Shown piece by piece: positions 21,232-27,100 of a stretch of 64,000 bases of DNA. Position 1 is the stretch's first letter, and every line of letters starts with the position of its first letter. The stretch spans positions 171,502 to 235,501 of the forward strand of contig JAFVTQ010000002.1 in NCBI GenBank assembly GCA_017503135.1, read 5' to 3'. The position numbers and the translations under genes were made by a program. The notes below the pieces were generated by a model, which had not been told where the DNA came from, searched no databases, and was given only the letters and a program-made list of their open reading frames with translations. The DNA comes from Clostridia bacterium (lineage in GTDB: Bacteria > Bacillota > Clostridia > Oscillospirales > Acutalibacteraceae).

Positions 21232-21906
21232 TTAGAGAATTTTATCTTGTAATGTCAACGCCAAAGGCATTGGCACTTTATCTGACAATTCATTATGAAG
21301 TTCTGCTTTATATGCCGTTGCAACTAGTGGTAACCCCGTCGCCTTGGACACGGCATTAGCATATGGGAGTGACCCTAACACATCTTCTGCTGTTGTTTCT
21401 TCACCCAAGTTTGAGTTGTTGACAAGCCCTGTAAATTTAATTCCACAGGCAAACTCGATTTCACCCATAACCTCAAGTGTATCTTCAACAGTTCGTGTTA
21501 AAGGTCTGCATTTATTTATTACCATGAGCATCTCATAGTCATTTTCTTCTTTGATTTTAGGGGCTAATCTGCCAAGTGCCAGAGCACCACGGTCATCTCC
21601 ACCCACATCAATGAGCACTCTATGAGATGTATCATCGGTAATCGAATACATTTCTTGTGGCAATGCAGGAATATCAACATTACTATTCGCAAATTCTGAA
21701 CAGATTAGTTTTATACCTGCACGAGCCAATTCTTCACTGCTGTCTTTTGTTCGGAAATATGGATTAACTATATCCAAATCGGCAATAGTGACTTTGTCAT
21801 ATTGCTTTTTCATCATCATTGCTAAATTCACGGCAACATTTGTTTTGCCACTGCCATAATGACCACACAAAAGAGTTATTCTTTTATCAATTTTCATATT
21901 TTTCAT
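21232..21906 (-). CDS. P-loop NTPase of the MinD/ParA/CooC-like type
   Basis: Deviant Walker A CGHYGSGKTNVAVNLA and DLDIVNPYF. The start overlaps the stop of the upstream ligase (TAATG). Confidence 0.65.
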   Translation of the reverse strand: MKNMKIDKRITLLCGHYGSGKTNVAVNLAMMMKKQYDKVTIADLDIVNPYFRTKDSSEELARAGIKLICSEFANSNVDIPALPQEMYSITDDTSHRVLIDVGGDDRGALALGRLAPKIKEENDYEMLMVINKCRPLTRTVEDTLEVMGEIEFACGIKFTGLVNNSNLGEETTAEDVLGSLPYANAVSKATGLPLVATAYKAELHNELSDKVPMPLALTLQDKIL

Positions 21907-24191
21907 TATAATTTATTACGCTGAATTTTACCACTTACAGTTTTTGGAAGTTCTGTTCTGAACTCAACAATTCTTGGATATTTATAAGGAGCAGTTCTGT
22001 CCTTAACATACTTCTGAATTTCTTTTTTGAGTTCTTCTGTTGGCTCTGTGCCATTTGTAAGCACGATAACTGCTTTAACTACCTGACCACGAACTTCGTC
22101 AGGAACTGCACAAACACCACATTCAAGAACATAAGGGAGTTCCATAATAACGCTTTCAATTTCAAATGGTCCGATTCTGTAACCTGATGATTTGATAACA
22201 TCATCAACACGACCAACATACCAATAGAATCCGTCTTCATCGCACCAAGCAGTATCACCTGTGTGGTAATATCCGTCGTGGATAACTTCGTCTGTCTTTT
22301 CTTGGTCTCTGTAATATTCTGTGAACAAGCCACAAGGTGAACCATTCTGAAGATTAACAACGATTTCACCAACCTGACCAACTGGTACTTTGTTTCCGTC
22401 GGCATCCATAAGTGAAACATCATAAATCGGAGCAGGTTTACCCATTGAGCCGATTTTATGTGGTGCGCCTGTAAGGTTACCGATAATCATTGTGCTTTCA
22501 GACTGACCAAAACCTTCAAGGATTTGAAGTCCTGTTGCCTTTTCAAATTGACGATAAACCTCAGGGTTGAGCGCCTCACCTGCTGTTGTCATATGCTGAA
22601 CTGATGACAAATCGTATTTTGAAATGTCTTGTTTAATCATCATACGAAGCATTGTTGGTGGTGCACAGAATGTTGTGATTTTATATTTTGCAAACATAGG
22701 AAGGATGTCTGCTGCATCAAAACGGTCAAAGTCATAAACAAATGTTGCTGCTTCTGCAAACCATTGTCCATAGAATTTACCCCACATTGATTTAGCCCAA
22801 CCTGTGTCTGAAATAGTGAAGTGTAATCCATCAGGGTTAACGTTGTGCCAATATTTTGCAGTATGGAAATGTCCCAAAGGATATAAATGATTATGTACTG
22901 CGATTTTAGGATATCCTGTTGTACCTGATGTGAAGAACATAAGTAATGGGTCTTTGCCTGATGGTGCGTCTTCTGTACGGTTATAATGTGTACTGTAAAG
23001 TGTGTACTCATCGTCAAAACTGCGCCAACCGTCACGAGAGCCATTAACGATTAATTTATTTTTAAGTTCAGGGCATTTTTCTGCTGCCAATTCAACCTGA
23101 TGAGCAGTATCACCGTCGGCAGTACAGATAATAGTGTTAACCCCTGCTGATTGGAAACGATATTCAAAATCGTGCTCTTGCAACTGATTTGTTGCAGGAA
23201 TTGCGATTGCACCAAGTTTGTTAAGACCTAACACAGCAAACCAGAATTGATAGTGACGTTTAAGCACCAACATAACTCTGTCGCCTTTTTGAATACCCAA
23301 AGATTTAAAATAGTTTGCACATTGGTTAGATGCTTTTTTCAAATCTTTGAATGTAAATCTGTTTTCAGTTTTATCGTTACTGATATGTAACATTGCAAGT
23401 TTATTTGGTTTGTCTTCTGCTAACTTATCAATAACATCAAAAGCAAAATTGAATTTTTCAATATTCTTAAACTCAATCTTTGTTGGTGTGCCGTTTTCAT
23501 CTTTTGTAACATTAACATATTTACGATAAACACGGTCTTTTGTGTCTGGAGTTGCTTTCTTTACCGCAACTGCACGGCTTGGTGTAAGTTCCGGAATTGG
23601 CTCACCTGTTGGATTAAGAACGATTGCGTAGAAAACGCAGTCTTTACCGTTAACAGCAATCATACCATGAGGAGTGTCACTATCATAATAAATGCTGTCA
23701 CCAGGTCCTAAAACTTCTTGGTGTTCACCAATCTGAATAAGCAAGTTACCCTCAACAACAACGTCACATTCCTGACCTGCGTGAGTTGTAAGTTCAATTT
23801 CACGTTGCTCTGCACTTGGGTCATATTTACACCTAACATATAGAGGTTCTGCAATACGATTTTGAAAAGCATAAGCCATATTGTAATATGTCATACCGTG
23901 TGCTTCTGCAACTTCCTGACCTGCTTCTTTACGTGTAACTATAAATGATTTAAGATTTGGGCTATAACCCTCAACGATTTCTGTGACATTGACACCAAAA
24001 ATCATTGCGCAACGATAAATGAAAGCGAAGTTCAAATCTCCGTTACCACTTTCGCAGTTACGGTATTCTTCTGCGCTGACACCGACCTTTGCAGCCATTT
24101 CTTCGATAGTGTAGTTCTCAATTTCACGAAGCTCGCGAATACGACGCGCCATCTCTTGAATTTTGTAGTCCAAACCAGTTATGCGTTCCAT
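21906..24191 (-). CDS. XRE-HTH + cupin + AMP-forming acyl-CoA synthetase fusion (paralogue A, behind the Val T-box)
   Basis: The N-terminus has [23 protein letters not shown] (HTH_3). A cupin follows ([16 protein letters not shown]), then an ACS-like core ([39 protein letters not shown]). The start was moved to ATG 24191 (MERITGL) behind a GGAGAA RBS. The track's extension reads through the T-box terminator. Confidence 0.85.
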   Translation of the reverse strand: [761 protein letters not shown]

Positions 24192-24214
24192 AGTTTTTCT
24201 CCATTCTCGGGACG

Positions 24215-26815: not shown

Positions 26816-26845
26816 AAGCAATTCCTCCTATACAGAAATTGAAAT

Positions 26846-27100
26846 AAAAAAATTCGCCTCAAAACTAATGCTTTGAGACGAATGTAAAATCATCCGCGGT
26901 ACCACTCAAATTGTAGCTTTCACTACCCCTCAAGGTCCAACAACCTTTATGCCTTTACGCAGCAATCACGAGAAACGTCTACTCCCAACAGGTTTCGGGT
27001 TTCCAGCTCAGAAGTGATAGGTTTCTGGATTTTTGTTATTGACTTGCACCAACCGTCAACTCTCTGAAAACAAGACATCCAAACCGTCTTCGTCATAGCT
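26846..27100 (-). promoter_or_regulatory. T-box leader, predicted Ile specifier (AUC)
   Basis: The minus strand carries UGACGAAG, CAGAGAG, GGUUGGUGCAAG, and U-AUC-A-CUUC-UGAGC (codon at 27018-27016). It also has the T-box UUUGAGUGGUACCGCGG (about 26912-26896) and the terminator UCGUCUCAAAG..UUUUGAGGCGA plus U7 (26882-26846). Confidence 0.85.

What the first reader, a model, noticed from the sequence alone, without database searches (positions are those of the whole stretch)
21906..27100. Tandem duplicated enzyme-regulator fusions (XRE-HTH + cupin + acyl-CoA synthetase), each with a homologous T-box that differs at the specifier codon
The two ~760 aa proteins share long, almost identical stretches. 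Examples are [17 protein letters not shown](K/Q)[14 protein letters not shown](I/V)[19 protein letters not shown](C/R)[45 protein letters not shown] and [19 protein letters not shown](V/I)SGKIQRNKL. They diverge in the N-terminal module and in the middle of the adenylation domain, where acyl specificity is usually set.

Their leaders are also homologous (GGUUGGUGCAAGUCA, GAUUGCUGCGU, UUUGAGUGGUACCGCGG). At the aligned specifier position one reads GUA and the other AUC. This looks like a whole-unit duplication (leader plus gene) followed by retargeting of the riboswitch and probably of the enzyme.

Fusing a DNA-binding HTH and a small-molecule-binding cupin to an adenylating enzyme also suggests a trigger-enzyme. 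The protein could double as a transcription factor, as BirA or PutA do. This part is inference.
Basis: partly seen in the sequence, partly recalled or inferred. Interest (0 to 1): 0.75.

Follow-up and report, generated by a model that had tools for sequence, protein, structure and literature searches.

The report
Two riboswitch-gated branched-acid CoA ligases
Two neighbouring copies of an enzyme that activates short branched fatty acids are each switched on by an RNA sensor, one of isoleucine shortage and one of valine shortage; these are probably the genes gut and rumen bacteria use to turn such acids back into amino acids, and the proteins' 'DNA-binding' part is a real fold but probably not a gene regulator.

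Summary
Two tandem minus-strand genes (24548-26815 and 21906-24191; 755 and 761 aa; 67% identical) both encode HTH_3 + Cupin_2 + AMP-binding + AMP-binding_C. Each has its own consensus promoter, T-box leader and terminator, and the specifiers are AUC (Ile) and GUA (Val).

The duplication is old. In 80 related species' loci the order acsA-acsB-MinD-like-ferredoxin-vorBAC is kept. All 72 readable acsA leaders carry AUC, and all 57 acsB leaders carry GUA or GUC. A third unit with a Leu T-box (CUC/CUG) sits beside the cluster in about half of the loci.

The ligase domains are 50% identical to MacsMa (PDB 3ETC), which prefers 2-methylbutyrate. The only strict clade-specific change in the ligase is Gly460 (acsA) versus Ala466 (acsB), next to known pocket residues.

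Best reading: starvation-gated salvage of 2-methylbutyrate and isobutyrate into Ile and Val, through acyl-CoA and reductive carboxylation by VOR.

The 'trigger enzyme' idea is not supported. The HTH is acidic in all 142 proteins, no operator-like motif is conserved, and the nearest structures are HppE-type HTH-cupin enzymes. Split versions of the fusion occur as abutting gene pairs. The module is more likely a ligand-sensing partner specific to each paralogue.

The parts
27121..27149 (-). Promoter of the Ile unit (TTGACA, 17 nt, TATAAT, with TG extension)
   Evidence: 12/12 consensus match. The same -35, extended -10 and UP-like tract are conserved in 69 orthologous units.
26871..27105 (-). 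T-box leader A. Specifier AUC (Ile) at 27016-27018; T-box sequence AAUUUGAGUGGUACCGCG at 26895-26912
   Evidence: RF00230, 99 bits, E=1.4e-20. Coordinates. All 72 orthologous leaders read ATC.
26852..26883 (-). Intrinsic terminator of leader A (14-bp stem, then a T run)
   Evidence: It overlaps the 3' arm of the T-box antiterminator region aligned.
24548..26815 (-). acsA, 755 aa: HTH-like domain (26591-26794), cupin (26240-26590), linker, and MacsMa/MbcS-type acyl-CoA ligase (24551-26101). Proposed 2-methylbutyrate-CoA ligase
   Evidence: Pfam. NCBIfam best hit MbcS, 451 bits. 3ETC E=4e-187, 50% identity. Gly460 (25436-25438) is invariant in 80 orthologues. H135/E139/H173 are invariant.
24509..24538 (-). 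Promoter of the Val unit. It starts 10 nt after the acsA stop codon
   Evidence: 11/12 consensus match. Conserved in 56 orthologous units.
24242..24492 (-). T-box leader B. Specifier GUA (Val) at 24403-24405; T-box sequence at 24277-24294
   Evidence: RF00230, 83.5 bits (below the gathering score of 93), E=1.2e-18, model positions 1-219. Coordinates. Orthologous leaders read GTA in 54 and GTC in 3.
24219..24257 (-). Intrinsic terminator of leader B (17-bp stem, then a T run)
21906..24191 (-). acsB, 761 aa, same four-domain architecture. Proposed isobutyrate-CoA ligase
   Evidence: Pfam. 67% identical to acsA. Ala466 (22794-22796) is invariant in 62 orthologues. The acsB clade is monophyletic in the NJ tree.
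21232..21906 (-). MinD/ParA-like P-loop ATPase, co-transcribed with acsB
   Evidence: CbiA/ParA Pfam hits. Present between acsB and the ferredoxin gene in 61 loci.
18649..21213 (-). 2x[4Fe-4S] ferredoxin (21007-21213), VorB (19934-21001), TPP beta subunit (19182-19934) and gamma subunit (18649-19182) of a 2-oxoisovalerate:ferredoxin oxidoreductase
   Evidence: Pfam. NCBIfam VorB NF005507, 539 bits against a cut-off of 399. Conserved order in the related loci. No conserved internal promoter.
18342..18638 (-). Third unit: promoter (18610-18638) and Leu T-box leader (18342-18589; specifier CUC at 18498-18500)
   Evidence: RF00230, 125 bits. Promoter. Orthologous leaders read CTC in 23 and CTG in 7.
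14390..18271 (-). Leu-unit genes: LeuA-like protein lacking the catalytic metal ligands (16892-18271), and a TIM-barrel + acyl-CoA ligase fusion (14390-16888) that is a candidate isovalerate-CoA ligase
   Evidence: Pfam and NCBIfam. Motif loss shown. The pair is adjacent to the cluster in about 38 loci.

Best explanation
The region is two of three amino-acid-specific modules of a salvage pathway that converts short branched-chain fatty acids (BCFAs) into branched-chain amino acids.

How each module works:
1. A strong constitutive promoter drives a T-box leader. The leader terminates transcription unless the matching uncharged tRNA pairs with its specifier: tRNA-Ile with AUC, tRNA-Val with GUA.
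2. Isoleucine shortage therefore turns on acsA, proposed to make 2-methylbutyryl-CoA from 2-methylbutyrate, ATP and CoA.
3. Valine shortage turns on acsB (proposed to make isobutyryl-CoA from isobutyrate) together with a MinD-like ATPase, a ferredoxin and VOR.
4. VOR reductively carboxylates the acyl-CoAs to the 2-oxo acids, and a transaminase converts these to Ile and Val.
5. A third unit with a Leu T-box, carrying a different ligase family, would do the same for isovalerate.

The pair arose by an ancient duplication of leader plus gene, probably from an Ile-type ancestor. Afterwards the specifier changed, and so did a residue beside the acyl pocket (Gly to Ala).

The N-terminal HTH-like + cupin module carries most of the paralogue-specific residues. 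It is most likely a small-molecule-sensing or regulatory partner of the ligase, possibly metal-dependent, rather than a DNA-binding repressor.

Shown here: domains, T-boxes, specifiers, gene order, conservation, and correlation of specifier with clade. Inferred: substrates, direction of VOR, and the role of the N-terminal module.
For: T-boxes:
- Both T-boxes, with promoters and terminators, are present.
- The specifier is invariant within each orthologue group across species: 72/72 AUC; 54 GUA plus 3 GUC; 23 CUC plus 7 CUG.
- Leaders lie only in front of acsA, acsB and the LeuA-like gene, never in front of the MinD-like, ferredoxin, vor or TIM-ligase genes.

Gene context:
- The order acsA-acsB-MinD-like-ferredoxin-vorBAC is conserved in most of 80 loci, out of at least 584 matching stretches in species-representative genomes.
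- VorB scores above its NCBIfam cut-off.

Ligase family:
- The best family hit is MbcS. Purified MbcS selectively activates 2-methylbutyrate and isobutyrate but handles isovalerate poorly (PMC10026030).
- The best solved relative is MacsMa (3ETC; E=4e-187; 50% identity), whose preferred substrate is 2-methylbutyrate and whose Trp259 is critical (PMC10455477).
- MacsMa W237, W254, K256, W259, C298 and G351 are invariant in all 142 proteins.
- The only strict clade-specific ligase position is MacsMa Gly255: Gly in acsA and Ala in acsB. The relaxed ones are MacsMa positions 258 and 270.

Physiology: 2-methylbutyrate as a precursor of Ile, isobutyrate of Val, and carboxylation of isovalerate to Leu are classical rumen physiology (Allison and co-workers, cited in PMC7356843).

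N-terminal module:
- 9 of the 10 strict clade-specific positions lie in it.
- H135, E139 and H173 are invariant in 26 and in 117 aligned homologues, and align to the HppE iron ligands H138, E142 and H180.
- Standalone 191-196 aa homologues are encoded directly upstream of, and overlapping or abutting, a 551-556 aa ligase gene in 4 of 4 contexts. Three of these have an Ile T-box.
Against: - No substrate, tRNA or flux was tested. The assignment of 2-methylbutyrate and isobutyrate rests on the specifier plus one Gly/Ala difference, and I could not check whether that residue's side chain points into the pocket.
- Both proteins score far below the MbcS equivalog cut-off (451 and 454 bits against 850).
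- In this window VOR lies only behind the Val T-box, and no conserved internal promoter exists. It is therefore unclear how the Ile and Leu routes obtain VOR when valine is plentiful.
- Leader B is below the Rfam gathering score.
- In 33 of 72 Ile leaders the base after the specifier is C rather than the usual purine.
- The split Ile-type homologues carry a different hairpin signature (IKRRxGFxY) from fused acsA (TAxExGIxI), although both have Ile T-boxes. This weakens the idea that the hairpin simply reads Ile-type versus Val-type ligands.
- The NJ tree has no support values. Its clade labels came from best BLAST hits, although the specifier and gene position are independent of that labelling.
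Confidence: 0.7

Rival explanations
1. Trigger enzyme. The HTH-cupin module binds DNA, so the ligase doubles as a transcription factor that senses acyl-CoA, acyl-AMP or a branched-chain amino acid, as BirA, PutA or NadR do.
For: - The HTH_3/HTH_19 and Cupin_2 profiles are passed.
- The profile of the module matches 1Y9Q, deposited as an HTH_3-family regulator (E=1e-8), and 434 repressor, SinR and DdrO HTH domains.
- The module is under purifying selection: within-clade conservation is 0.70-0.78, against 0.50-0.59 for the linker.
- An acyl-CoA ligase acting as a regulator has a reported precedent, judged from the title and abstract of PMC12754631 listed; I did not read the paper.
Against: - The net charge of the HTH domain is -2 to -10 in all 142 orthologues. 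Hand-counted charges are +4 for 434 repressor and 0 to +4 for the two ordinary XRE proteins in this window.
- The positions that contact bases in 434 repressor are E-E-E..R in acsA and A-E-E..N in acsB. They are not conserved within clades.
- No conserved motif or positioned inverted repeat is found beyond the -35, the extended -10 and a UP-like A/T tract in 156 promoter regions.
- 1:1 fusion, or translational coupling, to an abundant enzyme is atypical for a repressor.
- The top structural neighbours are the enzymes HppE, HEPD and MPnS.
Confidence: 0.17
2. The ligases mainly supply branched acyl-CoA primers for branched-chain membrane fatty acids, as MbcS does in Staphylococcus aureus. They would not mainly serve amino-acid synthesis.
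For: - The best family match is MbcS, whose role is primer supply for fatty-acid synthesis (PMC10026030).
- The split versions in Anaerotruncus-like genomes have no VOR next to them.
Against: - Control by tRNA-Ile and tRNA-Val charging makes sense for amino-acid supply, not for membrane lipids.
- acsB is co-transcribed with VOR in nearly all loci.
- A matching Leu unit exists.
- The two roles are not mutually exclusive.
Confidence: 0.1
3. The cupin module is itself a metal-dependent enzyme, like HppE. It would carry out an extra chemical step on the acid, the acyl-CoA or the 2-oxo acid, and would not be a sensor.
For: - An invariant H-x3-E...H triad aligns to the HppE iron ligands.
- HppE is the top Foldseek hit (E=6.5e-12).
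Against: - The acid to acyl-CoA to 2-oxo acid to amino acid route needs no further step.
- Sequence similarity to HppE is weak (21% identity, TM-score 0.33-0.40).
- The hosts are strict anaerobes, so oxygen-dependent chemistry is unlikely (inference).
- From memory of the PuuR sequence only, and not checked here, the same His/Glu/His pattern also occurs in the regulator PuuR.
Confidence: 0.08
4. Catabolic reading: VOR oxidises branched 2-oxo acids, and the ligases run in reverse to conserve energy while degrading Ile and Val.
For: VOR enzymes are reversible and work oxidatively in amino-acid fermenters (general knowledge).
Against: - T-boxes induce on starvation for the same amino acid, the opposite of what catabolism requires.
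- AMP-forming ligases are effectively irreversible in vivo. Fermenters use ADP-forming synthetases or phosphotransacylase plus kinase instead (general knowledge).
Confidence: 0.03

Closest known systems
T-box riboswitches of branched-chain amino-acid genes (for example the Leu T-box of the Bacillus subtilis ilv-leu operon; Rfam RF00230)
   Same: Stem I with a specifier loop, a conserved T-box sequence, and terminator/antiterminator choice. Biosynthetic genes are induced when the cognate tRNA is uncharged. Duplication of T-boxes with specifier change has been described in comparative studies (my recollection of Vitreschak et al. 2008; the paper was not held).
   Different: The cargo is not the de novo ilv/leu pathway. 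It is acid-activating ligases plus VOR. Three leaders with three specifiers are strung head to tail in one cluster. I found no paper linking T-boxes to these genes.
MacsMa, the medium-chain acyl-CoA synthetase of Methanosarcina acetivorans (PDB 3ETC)
   Same: 50% identity over the whole ligase. All six acyl-pocket residues studied in MacsMa are conserved. MacsMa prefers 2-methylbutyrate (PMC10455477).
   Different: MacsMa has no N-terminal HTH-cupin module and is archaeal, so it has no T-box. acsB carries Ala where MacsMa and acsA have Gly255.
MbcS, the methylbutyryl-CoA synthetase of Staphylococcus aureus (NCBIfam NF047394)
   Same: It is the best-scoring curated family. It activates 2-methylbutyrate and isobutyrate selectively and isovalerate poorly. 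This fits the use of a different ligase family in the Leu unit.
   Different: The scores (451 and 454 bits) are far below the equivalog cut-off of 850. MbcS is one unfused enzyme serving membrane lipid synthesis. Here there are two specialised paralogues, fused to HTH-cupin modules and linked to VOR.
HTH_3 + Cupin_2 two-domain proteins: regulator-type (PuuR; 1Y9Q) and enzyme-type (HppE, HEPD, MPnS)
   Same: The same collinear helical domain plus cupin, with His/Glu/His at the HppE metal-ligand positions.
   Different: The match to PuuR is far below its cut-off (22.6 bits against 211). Here the module is fused to, or translationally coupled with, a ligase. Its HTH is acidic. The solved relatives give no basis for choosing between regulator and non-regulator.
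Trigger enzymes with DNA-binding domains (BirA, PutA, NadR)
   Same: An adenylating or metabolic enzyme and an HTH-type fold in one polypeptide.
   Different: In those proteins DNA binding and operators are established. Here no operator is detectable and the HTH chemistry argues against DNA contact.
Reductive carboxylation of branched-chain fatty acids to branched-chain amino acids in rumen anaerobes (Allison, Robinson, Peel, 1966-1971)
   Same: Same substrates and products, and the same habitat: the 80 loci are nearly all gut or rumen Oscillospirales genomes assembled from metagenomes.
   Different: That work is physiological and uses labelled precursors. As far as my searches show, the genes, their regulation and the ligase step had not been assigned.

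Membership tests
T-box leader (RF00230) | Covariance-model score at or above the Rfam gathering score (93 bits) | tested here: met
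   Leader A scores 99 bits. Leader B scores 83.5 bits, below the cut-off, but with E=1.2e-18 over model positions 1-219. For B alone this row would be 'inconclusive'.
T-box leader (RF00230) | Stem I with a K-turn, AGAGA and distal-loop motifs, and a specifier loop presenting a codon just 5' of the closing helix | tested here: met
   The alignments show this: AUC+A in leader A and GUA+G in leader B. The codon column is invariant per orthologue group in 159 leaders.
T-box leader (RF00230) | Conserved T-box sequence containing UGGN, able to pair with the tRNA NCCA end | tested here: met
   AAUUUGAGUGGUACCGCG is at 26895-26912 and at 24277-24294. UGGU fits discriminator base A73 (general knowledge).
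T-box leader (RF00230) | Intrinsic terminator competing with the antiterminator, upstream of the regulated ORF | tested here: met
   Terminators lie at 26883-26852 and 24257-24219, each followed by a T run, 36 and 27 nt before the start codons.
T-box leader (RF00230) | Read-through stimulated by uncharged cognate tRNA | not testable with these tools
   This needs in vitro transcription or reporter assays.
ANL-superfamily short/medium-chain acyl-CoA synthetase (MacsMa/MbcS type) | AMP-binding and AMP-binding_C domains with the core motifs | tested here: met
   Pfam gives 229 and 216 bits for AMP-binding and 76 and 77 bits for AMP-binding_C. The motifs [14 protein letters not shown] and PKTxSGK are present.
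ANL-superfamily short/medium-chain acyl-CoA synthetase (MacsMa/MbcS type) | MacsMa acyl-pocket residues, including Gly in place of the Acs Trp, and Trp259 | tested here: met
   W237, W254, K256, W259, C298 and G351 are invariant in 80 + 62 orthologues. The roles of Trp259 and the Gly are taken from PMC10455477. The other residues are from my recollection of Meng et al. 2010.
MbcS equivalog (NF047394) | Whole-protein score at or above the curated cut-off (850 bits) | tested here: not met
   451 and 454 bits. The proteins are relatives of MbcS, not equivalogs.
ANL-superfamily short/medium-chain acyl-CoA synthetase (MacsMa/MbcS type) | Measured activity with 2-methylbutyrate or isobutyrate | not testable with these tools
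   This needs an enzyme assay.
XRE-family HTH transcription factor with cupin sensor (PuuR-like) | HTH_3/HTH_19 and Cupin_2 profile matches | tested here: met
   Both are above the Pfam cut-offs in both proteins.
XRE-family HTH transcription factor with cupin sensor (PuuR-like) | Score above the PuuR equivalog cut-off (211 bits) | tested here: not met
   22.6 and 19.4 bits.
XRE-family HTH transcription factor with cupin sensor (PuuR-like) | Recognition helix and domain surface suited to DNA contact | tested here: not met
   Net charge is -2 to -10 in all 142 HTH domains. Glu residues sit at the positions equivalent to 434-repressor Q28, Q29 and S30. This is a soft criterion, because acidic HTH proteins that bind DNA are not impossible.
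XRE-family HTH transcription factor with cupin sensor (PuuR-like) | Conserved operator (usually a palindrome) at the regulated promoters | tested here: not met
   Position-wise information content, inverted-repeat counts and 7-mer counts over 156 promoter regions show only the -35, the extended -10, a UP-like tract and the start of Stem I. Operators elsewhere in the genomes were not searched.
Trigger enzymes (BirA, PutA, NadR type) | The same polypeptide shows catalysis and ligand-dependent, sequence-specific DNA binding | not testable with these tools
   Only the co-occurrence of the folds is shown.
HppE-like HTH-cupin mononuclear-metal proteins | 2-His-1-carboxylate triad in the cupin | tested here: met
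   H135, E139 and H173 align to HppE H138, E142 and H180. They are invariant in alignments A2 (26 sequences) and A3 (117 sequences). Metal binding itself was not tested.
HppE-like HTH-cupin mononuclear-metal proteins | Overall fold similarity | tested here: inconclusive
   The AlphaFold2 model has pLDDT 82.4. Foldseek's top hit is HppE at E=6.5e-12, but the TM-score is only 0.33-0.40 and identity 21%. 1Y9Q, deposited as a regulator, scores nearly as well.
2-oxoisovalerate:ferredoxin oxidoreductase (VOR) | VorB subfamily score above the cut-off, with TPP beta, gamma and ferredoxin subunits present | tested here: met
   NF005507 scores 539 bits against a cut-off of 399. POR_N/PFOR_II, TPP_enzyme_C, POR and Fer4 domains are found.

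The most novel reading that the evidence does not exclude
The HTH-like + cupin module is a new kind of built-in sensor for an adenylating enzyme. It would be a probably metal-dependent pocket, built on the invariant His/Glu/His triad and a paralogue-specific beta-hairpin at residues 92-100. It would bind the pathway's branched 2-oxo acid, amino acid or acyl-CoA and switch the ligase on or off. The pathway would then be gated twice: by tRNA charging at the RNA level and by a metabolite at the protein level. The catalytically dead LeuA-like protein, which keeps its leucine-binding regulatory domain, may play the same part for the Leu-unit ligase.
Probability: 0.3. Interest if true: 0.75.

Novelty: new variant of a known kind. 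Interest (0 to 1): 0.58.

Why it matters
Rumen and gut Ruminococcaceae-type bacteria have been known since the 1960s to need or use isobutyrate, 2-methylbutyrate and isovalerate to make valine, isoleucine and leucine. Branched-chain volatile fatty acids are fed to dairy cattle for this reason. In my searches of the held library I found no paper assigning the genes for the activation step or describing their control.

This cluster gives a specific, testable gene set: one ligase per amino acid, a shared VOR, and one T-box per amino acid. It is present in at least several hundred species-representative genomes.

It is also a clean natural example of a riboswitch and an enzyme being retargeted together after duplication. 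The candidate specificity change is a single residue (Gly to Ala).

Finally, it flags a widespread, uncharacterised HTH-cupin partner of acyl-CoA ligases whose role is open: sensor, scaffold or regulator.

Tried and rejected
1. Operator search. I aligned 156 promoter regions on the -35 element and looked at information content, 6-bp inverted repeats and 7-mer counts (one search failed on a slicing bug). Only promoter elements and a UP-like A/T tract are conserved. The excess of inverted repeats upstream of the -35 is explained by the A/T tract, and the control was only a mononucleotide shuffle.
2. Internal promoter for VOR. The 10/12 match at 21258-21229 is not conserved: 1 of 59 loci has such a match before the ferredoxin gene and none before vorB. 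I rejected it as a general feature.
3. Rfam scan of the split-gene loci L081 and L083 found nothing at the gathering threshold. A leader HMM built from the related leaders (nhmmer) then found T-box leaders in L083, L085 and L086, but none in L081.
4. Literature. No paper was found on T-boxes with these genes, on HTH-cupin-ligase fusions, or on genes for reductive carboxylation of branched-chain fatty acids. The Vitreschak 2008 paper is not held. Nothing retrievable was found on HppE active-site residues, so my mapping of the 92-100 hairpin onto the HppE substrate-binding hairpin (R97-Y105) rests on memory and on a weak alignment.
5. The divergent XRE + Cys-rich ORF at 27248-27877 was considered as the cluster's regulator. 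It is present in only 2 of 81 loci, so I rejected it.
6. A recent local duplication was rejected, because both paralogues have orthologues across about 60 species.
7. I did not predict the full-length protein's structure. The tool returns no coordinates or inter-domain error estimates, so domain docking could not have been read from it.

Full report
**1. What is there**

Two adjacent genes lie on the minus strand. Taking the start codons that follow good ribosome-binding sites (ATG 26815 and ATG 24191), they encode 755 aa (here called acsA) and 761 aa (acsB).

Both proteins contain HTH_3/HTH_19, Cupin_2, AMP-binding and AMP-binding_C, all above the Pfam cut-offs.

**2. The leaders**

- Rfam's T-box model matches 26871-27105 at 99 bits, above the gathering score.
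- It matches 24242-24492 at 83.5 bits, below the gathering score of 93, but with E=1.2e-18 and the whole model aligned.
- Each leader has a near-consensus sigma-70 promoter (27149-27121 and 24538-24509) and an intrinsic terminator just before the ORF (26883-26852 and 24257-24219).
- In the model alignment the specifier is the triplet before the last unpaired base 5' of the 4-bp CUUC helix. It reads AUC (27016-27018, Ile) in leader A and GUA (24403-24405, Val) in leader B.
- A third T-box (18342-18589, 125 bits, specifier CUC, Leu) follows further downstream on the same strand.

**3. The surroundings change the picture**

acsB is followed, without a terminator, by:
- a MinD/ParA-like P-loop ATPase;
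- a 2x[4Fe-4S] ferredoxin;
- the three subunits of a 2-oxoacid:ferredoxin oxidoreductase, whose alpha subunit scores above the curated cut-off of the VorB (2-oxoisovalerate) subfamily.

The Leu T-box precedes a LeuA-like gene and an 832-aa fusion of a xylose-isomerase-like TIM barrel with an acyl-CoA ligase of a different family. The cluster therefore consists of three units, each with its own promoter and T-box. They are strung head to tail, with one acid-activating enzyme per branched-chain amino acid and a shared VOR.

**4. Comparison across species**

A pattern scan of one genome per species found at least 584 stretches encoding relatives. The 80 best are gut and rumen genomes assembled from metagenomes, labelled mostly Acutalibacteraceae, Ruminococcaceae, Oscillospiraceae or simply Clostridia. 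All 80 encode the full fusion.

- **Gene order.** acsA-acsB-MinD-like-ferredoxin-vorB-vorA-vorC holds wherever the contig is long enough. Four loci have a single ligase in front of the MinD-like, ferredoxin and vor genes. The LeuA-like + TIM-ligase pair is adjacent in about 38 loci, in three different arrangements.
- **Leader distribution.** A leader HMM seeded on leaders A and B and rebuilt once from its hits found leaders upstream of 76 of 82 acsA, 57 of 67 acsB and 31 of 37 LeuA-like genes. It found none before any other gene of the cluster.
- **Specifiers.** The specifier column reads ATC in all 72 complete acsA leaders, GTA (54) or GTC (3) in all 57 acsB leaders, and CTC (23) or CTG (7) in the Leu units.
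- **Tree.** In a neighbour-joining tree of 142 full-length proteins rooted on MacsMa, the acsB proteins form one clade and the acsA proteins a grade around it. The tree has no support values.
- **acsB without its own T-box.** Ten acsB orthologues have none. Nine of them sit 4-273 nt behind acsA (the tenth, L029, 361 nt), presumably under the Ile T-box.
- **Leader similarity.** A and B leaders are 63% identical to each other on average. This compares with 68% within each group and about 55% to Leu leaders.

It also shows that the event is old and stably inherited.

**5. The enzyme**

- **Closest relatives.** The best curated family is MbcS of S. aureus (451 and 454 bits, well below the equivalog cut-off of 850). 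The best solved relative is MacsMa (3ETC; E=4e-187; 50% identity).
- **What those enzymes do.** MbcS selectively activates 2-methylbutyrate and isobutyrate and is poor with isovalerate (PMC10026030). MacsMa prefers 2-methylbutyrate, has Gly where acetyl-CoA synthetase has its pocket Trp, and needs Trp259 (PMC10455477).
- **Pocket conservation.** MacsMa residues W237, W254, K256, W259, C298 and G351 are invariant in all 80 acsA and all 62 acsB proteins.
- **Clade-specific positions.** I asked which positions are at least 90% conserved within each clade but differ between clades. There are ten. Only one is in the ligase: MacsMa Gly255, between W254 and K256, which is Gly in 80 of 80 acsA and Ala in 62 of 62 acsB. 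Relaxing the threshold adds MacsMa positions 258 and 270.
- **Fit to the hypothesis.** A slightly bulkier residue in the paralogue tied to valine (the C4 acid) and the MacsMa-like Gly in the one tied to isoleucine (the C5 acid) fits the proposed substrates. I could not check the side-chain direction.
- **The Leu unit.** That isovalerate is a poor substrate for this enzyme family fits the use of a different ligase in the Leu unit.

**6. The N-terminal module**

Nine of the ten strict clade-specific positions, and 16 of 19 relaxed ones, lie in this module. They cluster at residues 92-115. The AlphaFold2 model (pLDDT 82.4) shows a beta-hairpin at residues 93-100, followed by a short helix (104-107) and a strand at 113-119. 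The module is under clear purifying selection compared with the linker.

His135, Glu139 and His173 are invariant in 26 fused and 117 mostly standalone homologues. They align with the iron ligands of HppE.

Arguments against a DNA-binding role:
- The HTH domain carries a net negative charge in all 142 proteins (means -5.6 and -4.9).
- Glu residues sit where 434 repressor contacts bases, and these positions vary within clades.
- The 156 aligned promoter regions share only a consensus -35, an extended -10 and a UP-like A/T tract.
- The closest structures are HppE, then 1Y9Q (an uncharacterised 'regulator'), then HEPD and MPnS. These are mostly enzymes whose HTH-like domain, to my knowledge, is structural (that last point is from memory).

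An exhaustive search of 1.84 billion cluster-representative proteins found many standalone proteins of about 185 aa that are 33-46% identical to the module. In all four genomic contexts I looked up, such a gene overlaps or abuts a 551-556 aa ligase gene downstream, in the same order as in the fusion. Three of the four have an Ile T-box (ATC) upstream.

A fusion alongside translationally coupled split forms is the classic sign of two parts of one machine. It suits a regulatory or structural subunit better than a repressor. My preferred reading is a ligand-sensing, possibly metal-dependent partner that differs between the Ile and Val paralogues. This part is inference.

One point counts against a simple 'reads Ile versus Val' model. 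The split Ile-type proteins have a different hairpin signature from fused acsA.

**7. Mechanism proposed**

Strong constitutive promoters feed three T-box gates. Uncharged tRNA-Ile opens the gate to acsA. Uncharged tRNA-Val opens the gate to acsB, the ATPase, the ferredoxin and VOR. Uncharged tRNA-Leu opens the gate to the Leu unit.

The ligases convert environmental 2-methylbutyrate, isobutyrate and (by inference) isovalerate to CoA esters. VOR, with reduced ferredoxin and CO2, makes the 2-oxo acids. A transaminase, not in this window, completes the amino acids.

This matches the classical labelling physiology of rumen anaerobes (references 42-44 in PMC7356843). The opposite, catabolic reading is contradicted by induction on starvation.

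**8. What stays unexplained**

- In this window and most loci VOR sits only behind the Val gate, and no conserved internal promoter exists. It is open whether leaky termination, other VOR-type oxidoreductases in the genome, or correlated Ile/Val starvation covers the Ile and Leu routes.
- In 33 of 72 Ile leaders the base after the specifier is C, not the usual purine.
- The role of the conserved MinD-like ATPase is unknown.

**9. Known or new**

T-box control, specifier switching after duplication, MacsMa/MbcS-type ligases, VOR and the branched-acid-to-amino-acid physiology are each known. Seven of my nine full-text searches addressed this. None turned up an account of their combination into a three-specifier salvage cluster, of the paired retargeting of leader and pocket, or of the widespread HTH-cupin partner of the ligase. 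I class the finding as a new variant of a known kind and of moderate to good interest.

Noticed in passing
window 16892-18271 (-), with orthologues in 34 related loci: The LeuA-like protein behind the Leu T-box keeps the HMGL-like TIM barrel and the LeuA_dimer regulatory domain. It has lost the catalytic metal ligands: RDGEQ has become 'LCR-EQ' and HxH has become 'GCD'. Both motifs are degenerate in all 34 orthologues, so this is a conserved pseudo-isopropylmalate synthase, possibly a leucine-sensing partner.
   Followed up: partly
window 14390-16888 (-): An 832-aa fusion of a xylose-isomerase-like TIM barrel (AP_endonuc_2) with an acyl-CoA ligase of the PRK12583 type (664 bits). It is always paired with the LeuA-like gene and under the Leu T-box. 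It is a candidate isovalerate-CoA ligase, and the role of its TIM barrel is unknown.
   Followed up: partly
window 21232-21906 (-): A MinD/ParA/CbiA-like P-loop ATPase is conserved between acsB and the ferredoxin-vorBAC genes in 61 loci. It gives only weak family matches. It may be a maturation or Fe-S delivery factor for VOR; its function is unknown.
   Followed up: no
window 18649-24538 (-): VOR is transcribed only behind the Val T-box. The promoter-like site at 21258-21229 is not conserved (1 of 59 loci). How the Ile and Leu routes obtain VOR when valine is plentiful is unexplained.
   Followed up: partly
L081, L083, L085, L086 (Anaerotruncus-like and other Oscillospirales genomes): Split versions of the fusion: a 191-196 aa HTH-cupin gene overlapping or abutting a 551-556 aa ligase gene. 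Three of the four have an Ile (ATC) T-box, and none has VOR next to it.
   Followed up: yes
window 13712-13797 (-), upstream of 9027-13695: A ZMP/ZTP riboswitch (65.9 bits) lies in front of pyruvate formate-lyase, its activating enzyme and formate-tetrahydrofolate ligase. This is the usual one-carbon context for this riboswitch.
   Followed up: no
window 27248-27877 (+): An XRE HTH fused to a Cys-rich domain with a weak desulfoferrodoxin match, transcribed divergently from the acsA promoter. It is present beside the cluster in only 2 of 81 loci, so it is probably unrelated.
   Followed up: partly
window 45482-46906 (-): A bacterial serpin (Pfam Serpin, E=2.8e-61) lies near fucosidase and GH31 glycosidase genes.
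   Followed up: no
P0160 (758 aa; representative hit, sequence): A distant member of the fusion family in which the ligase P-loop motif (T/S)SG(T/S)TGxPK reads 'QSYSYGMAKP'. It may be a catalytically dead fusion.
   Followed up: no
Promoters at 27121-27149, 24509-24538 and 18610-18638, and their orthologues: All three unit types share an unusually complete promoter: TTGACA, an extended -10 (TGnTAtAAT) and an A/T-rich UP-like tract. This suggests high constitutive initiation, with control left to the T-boxes.
   Followed up: yes
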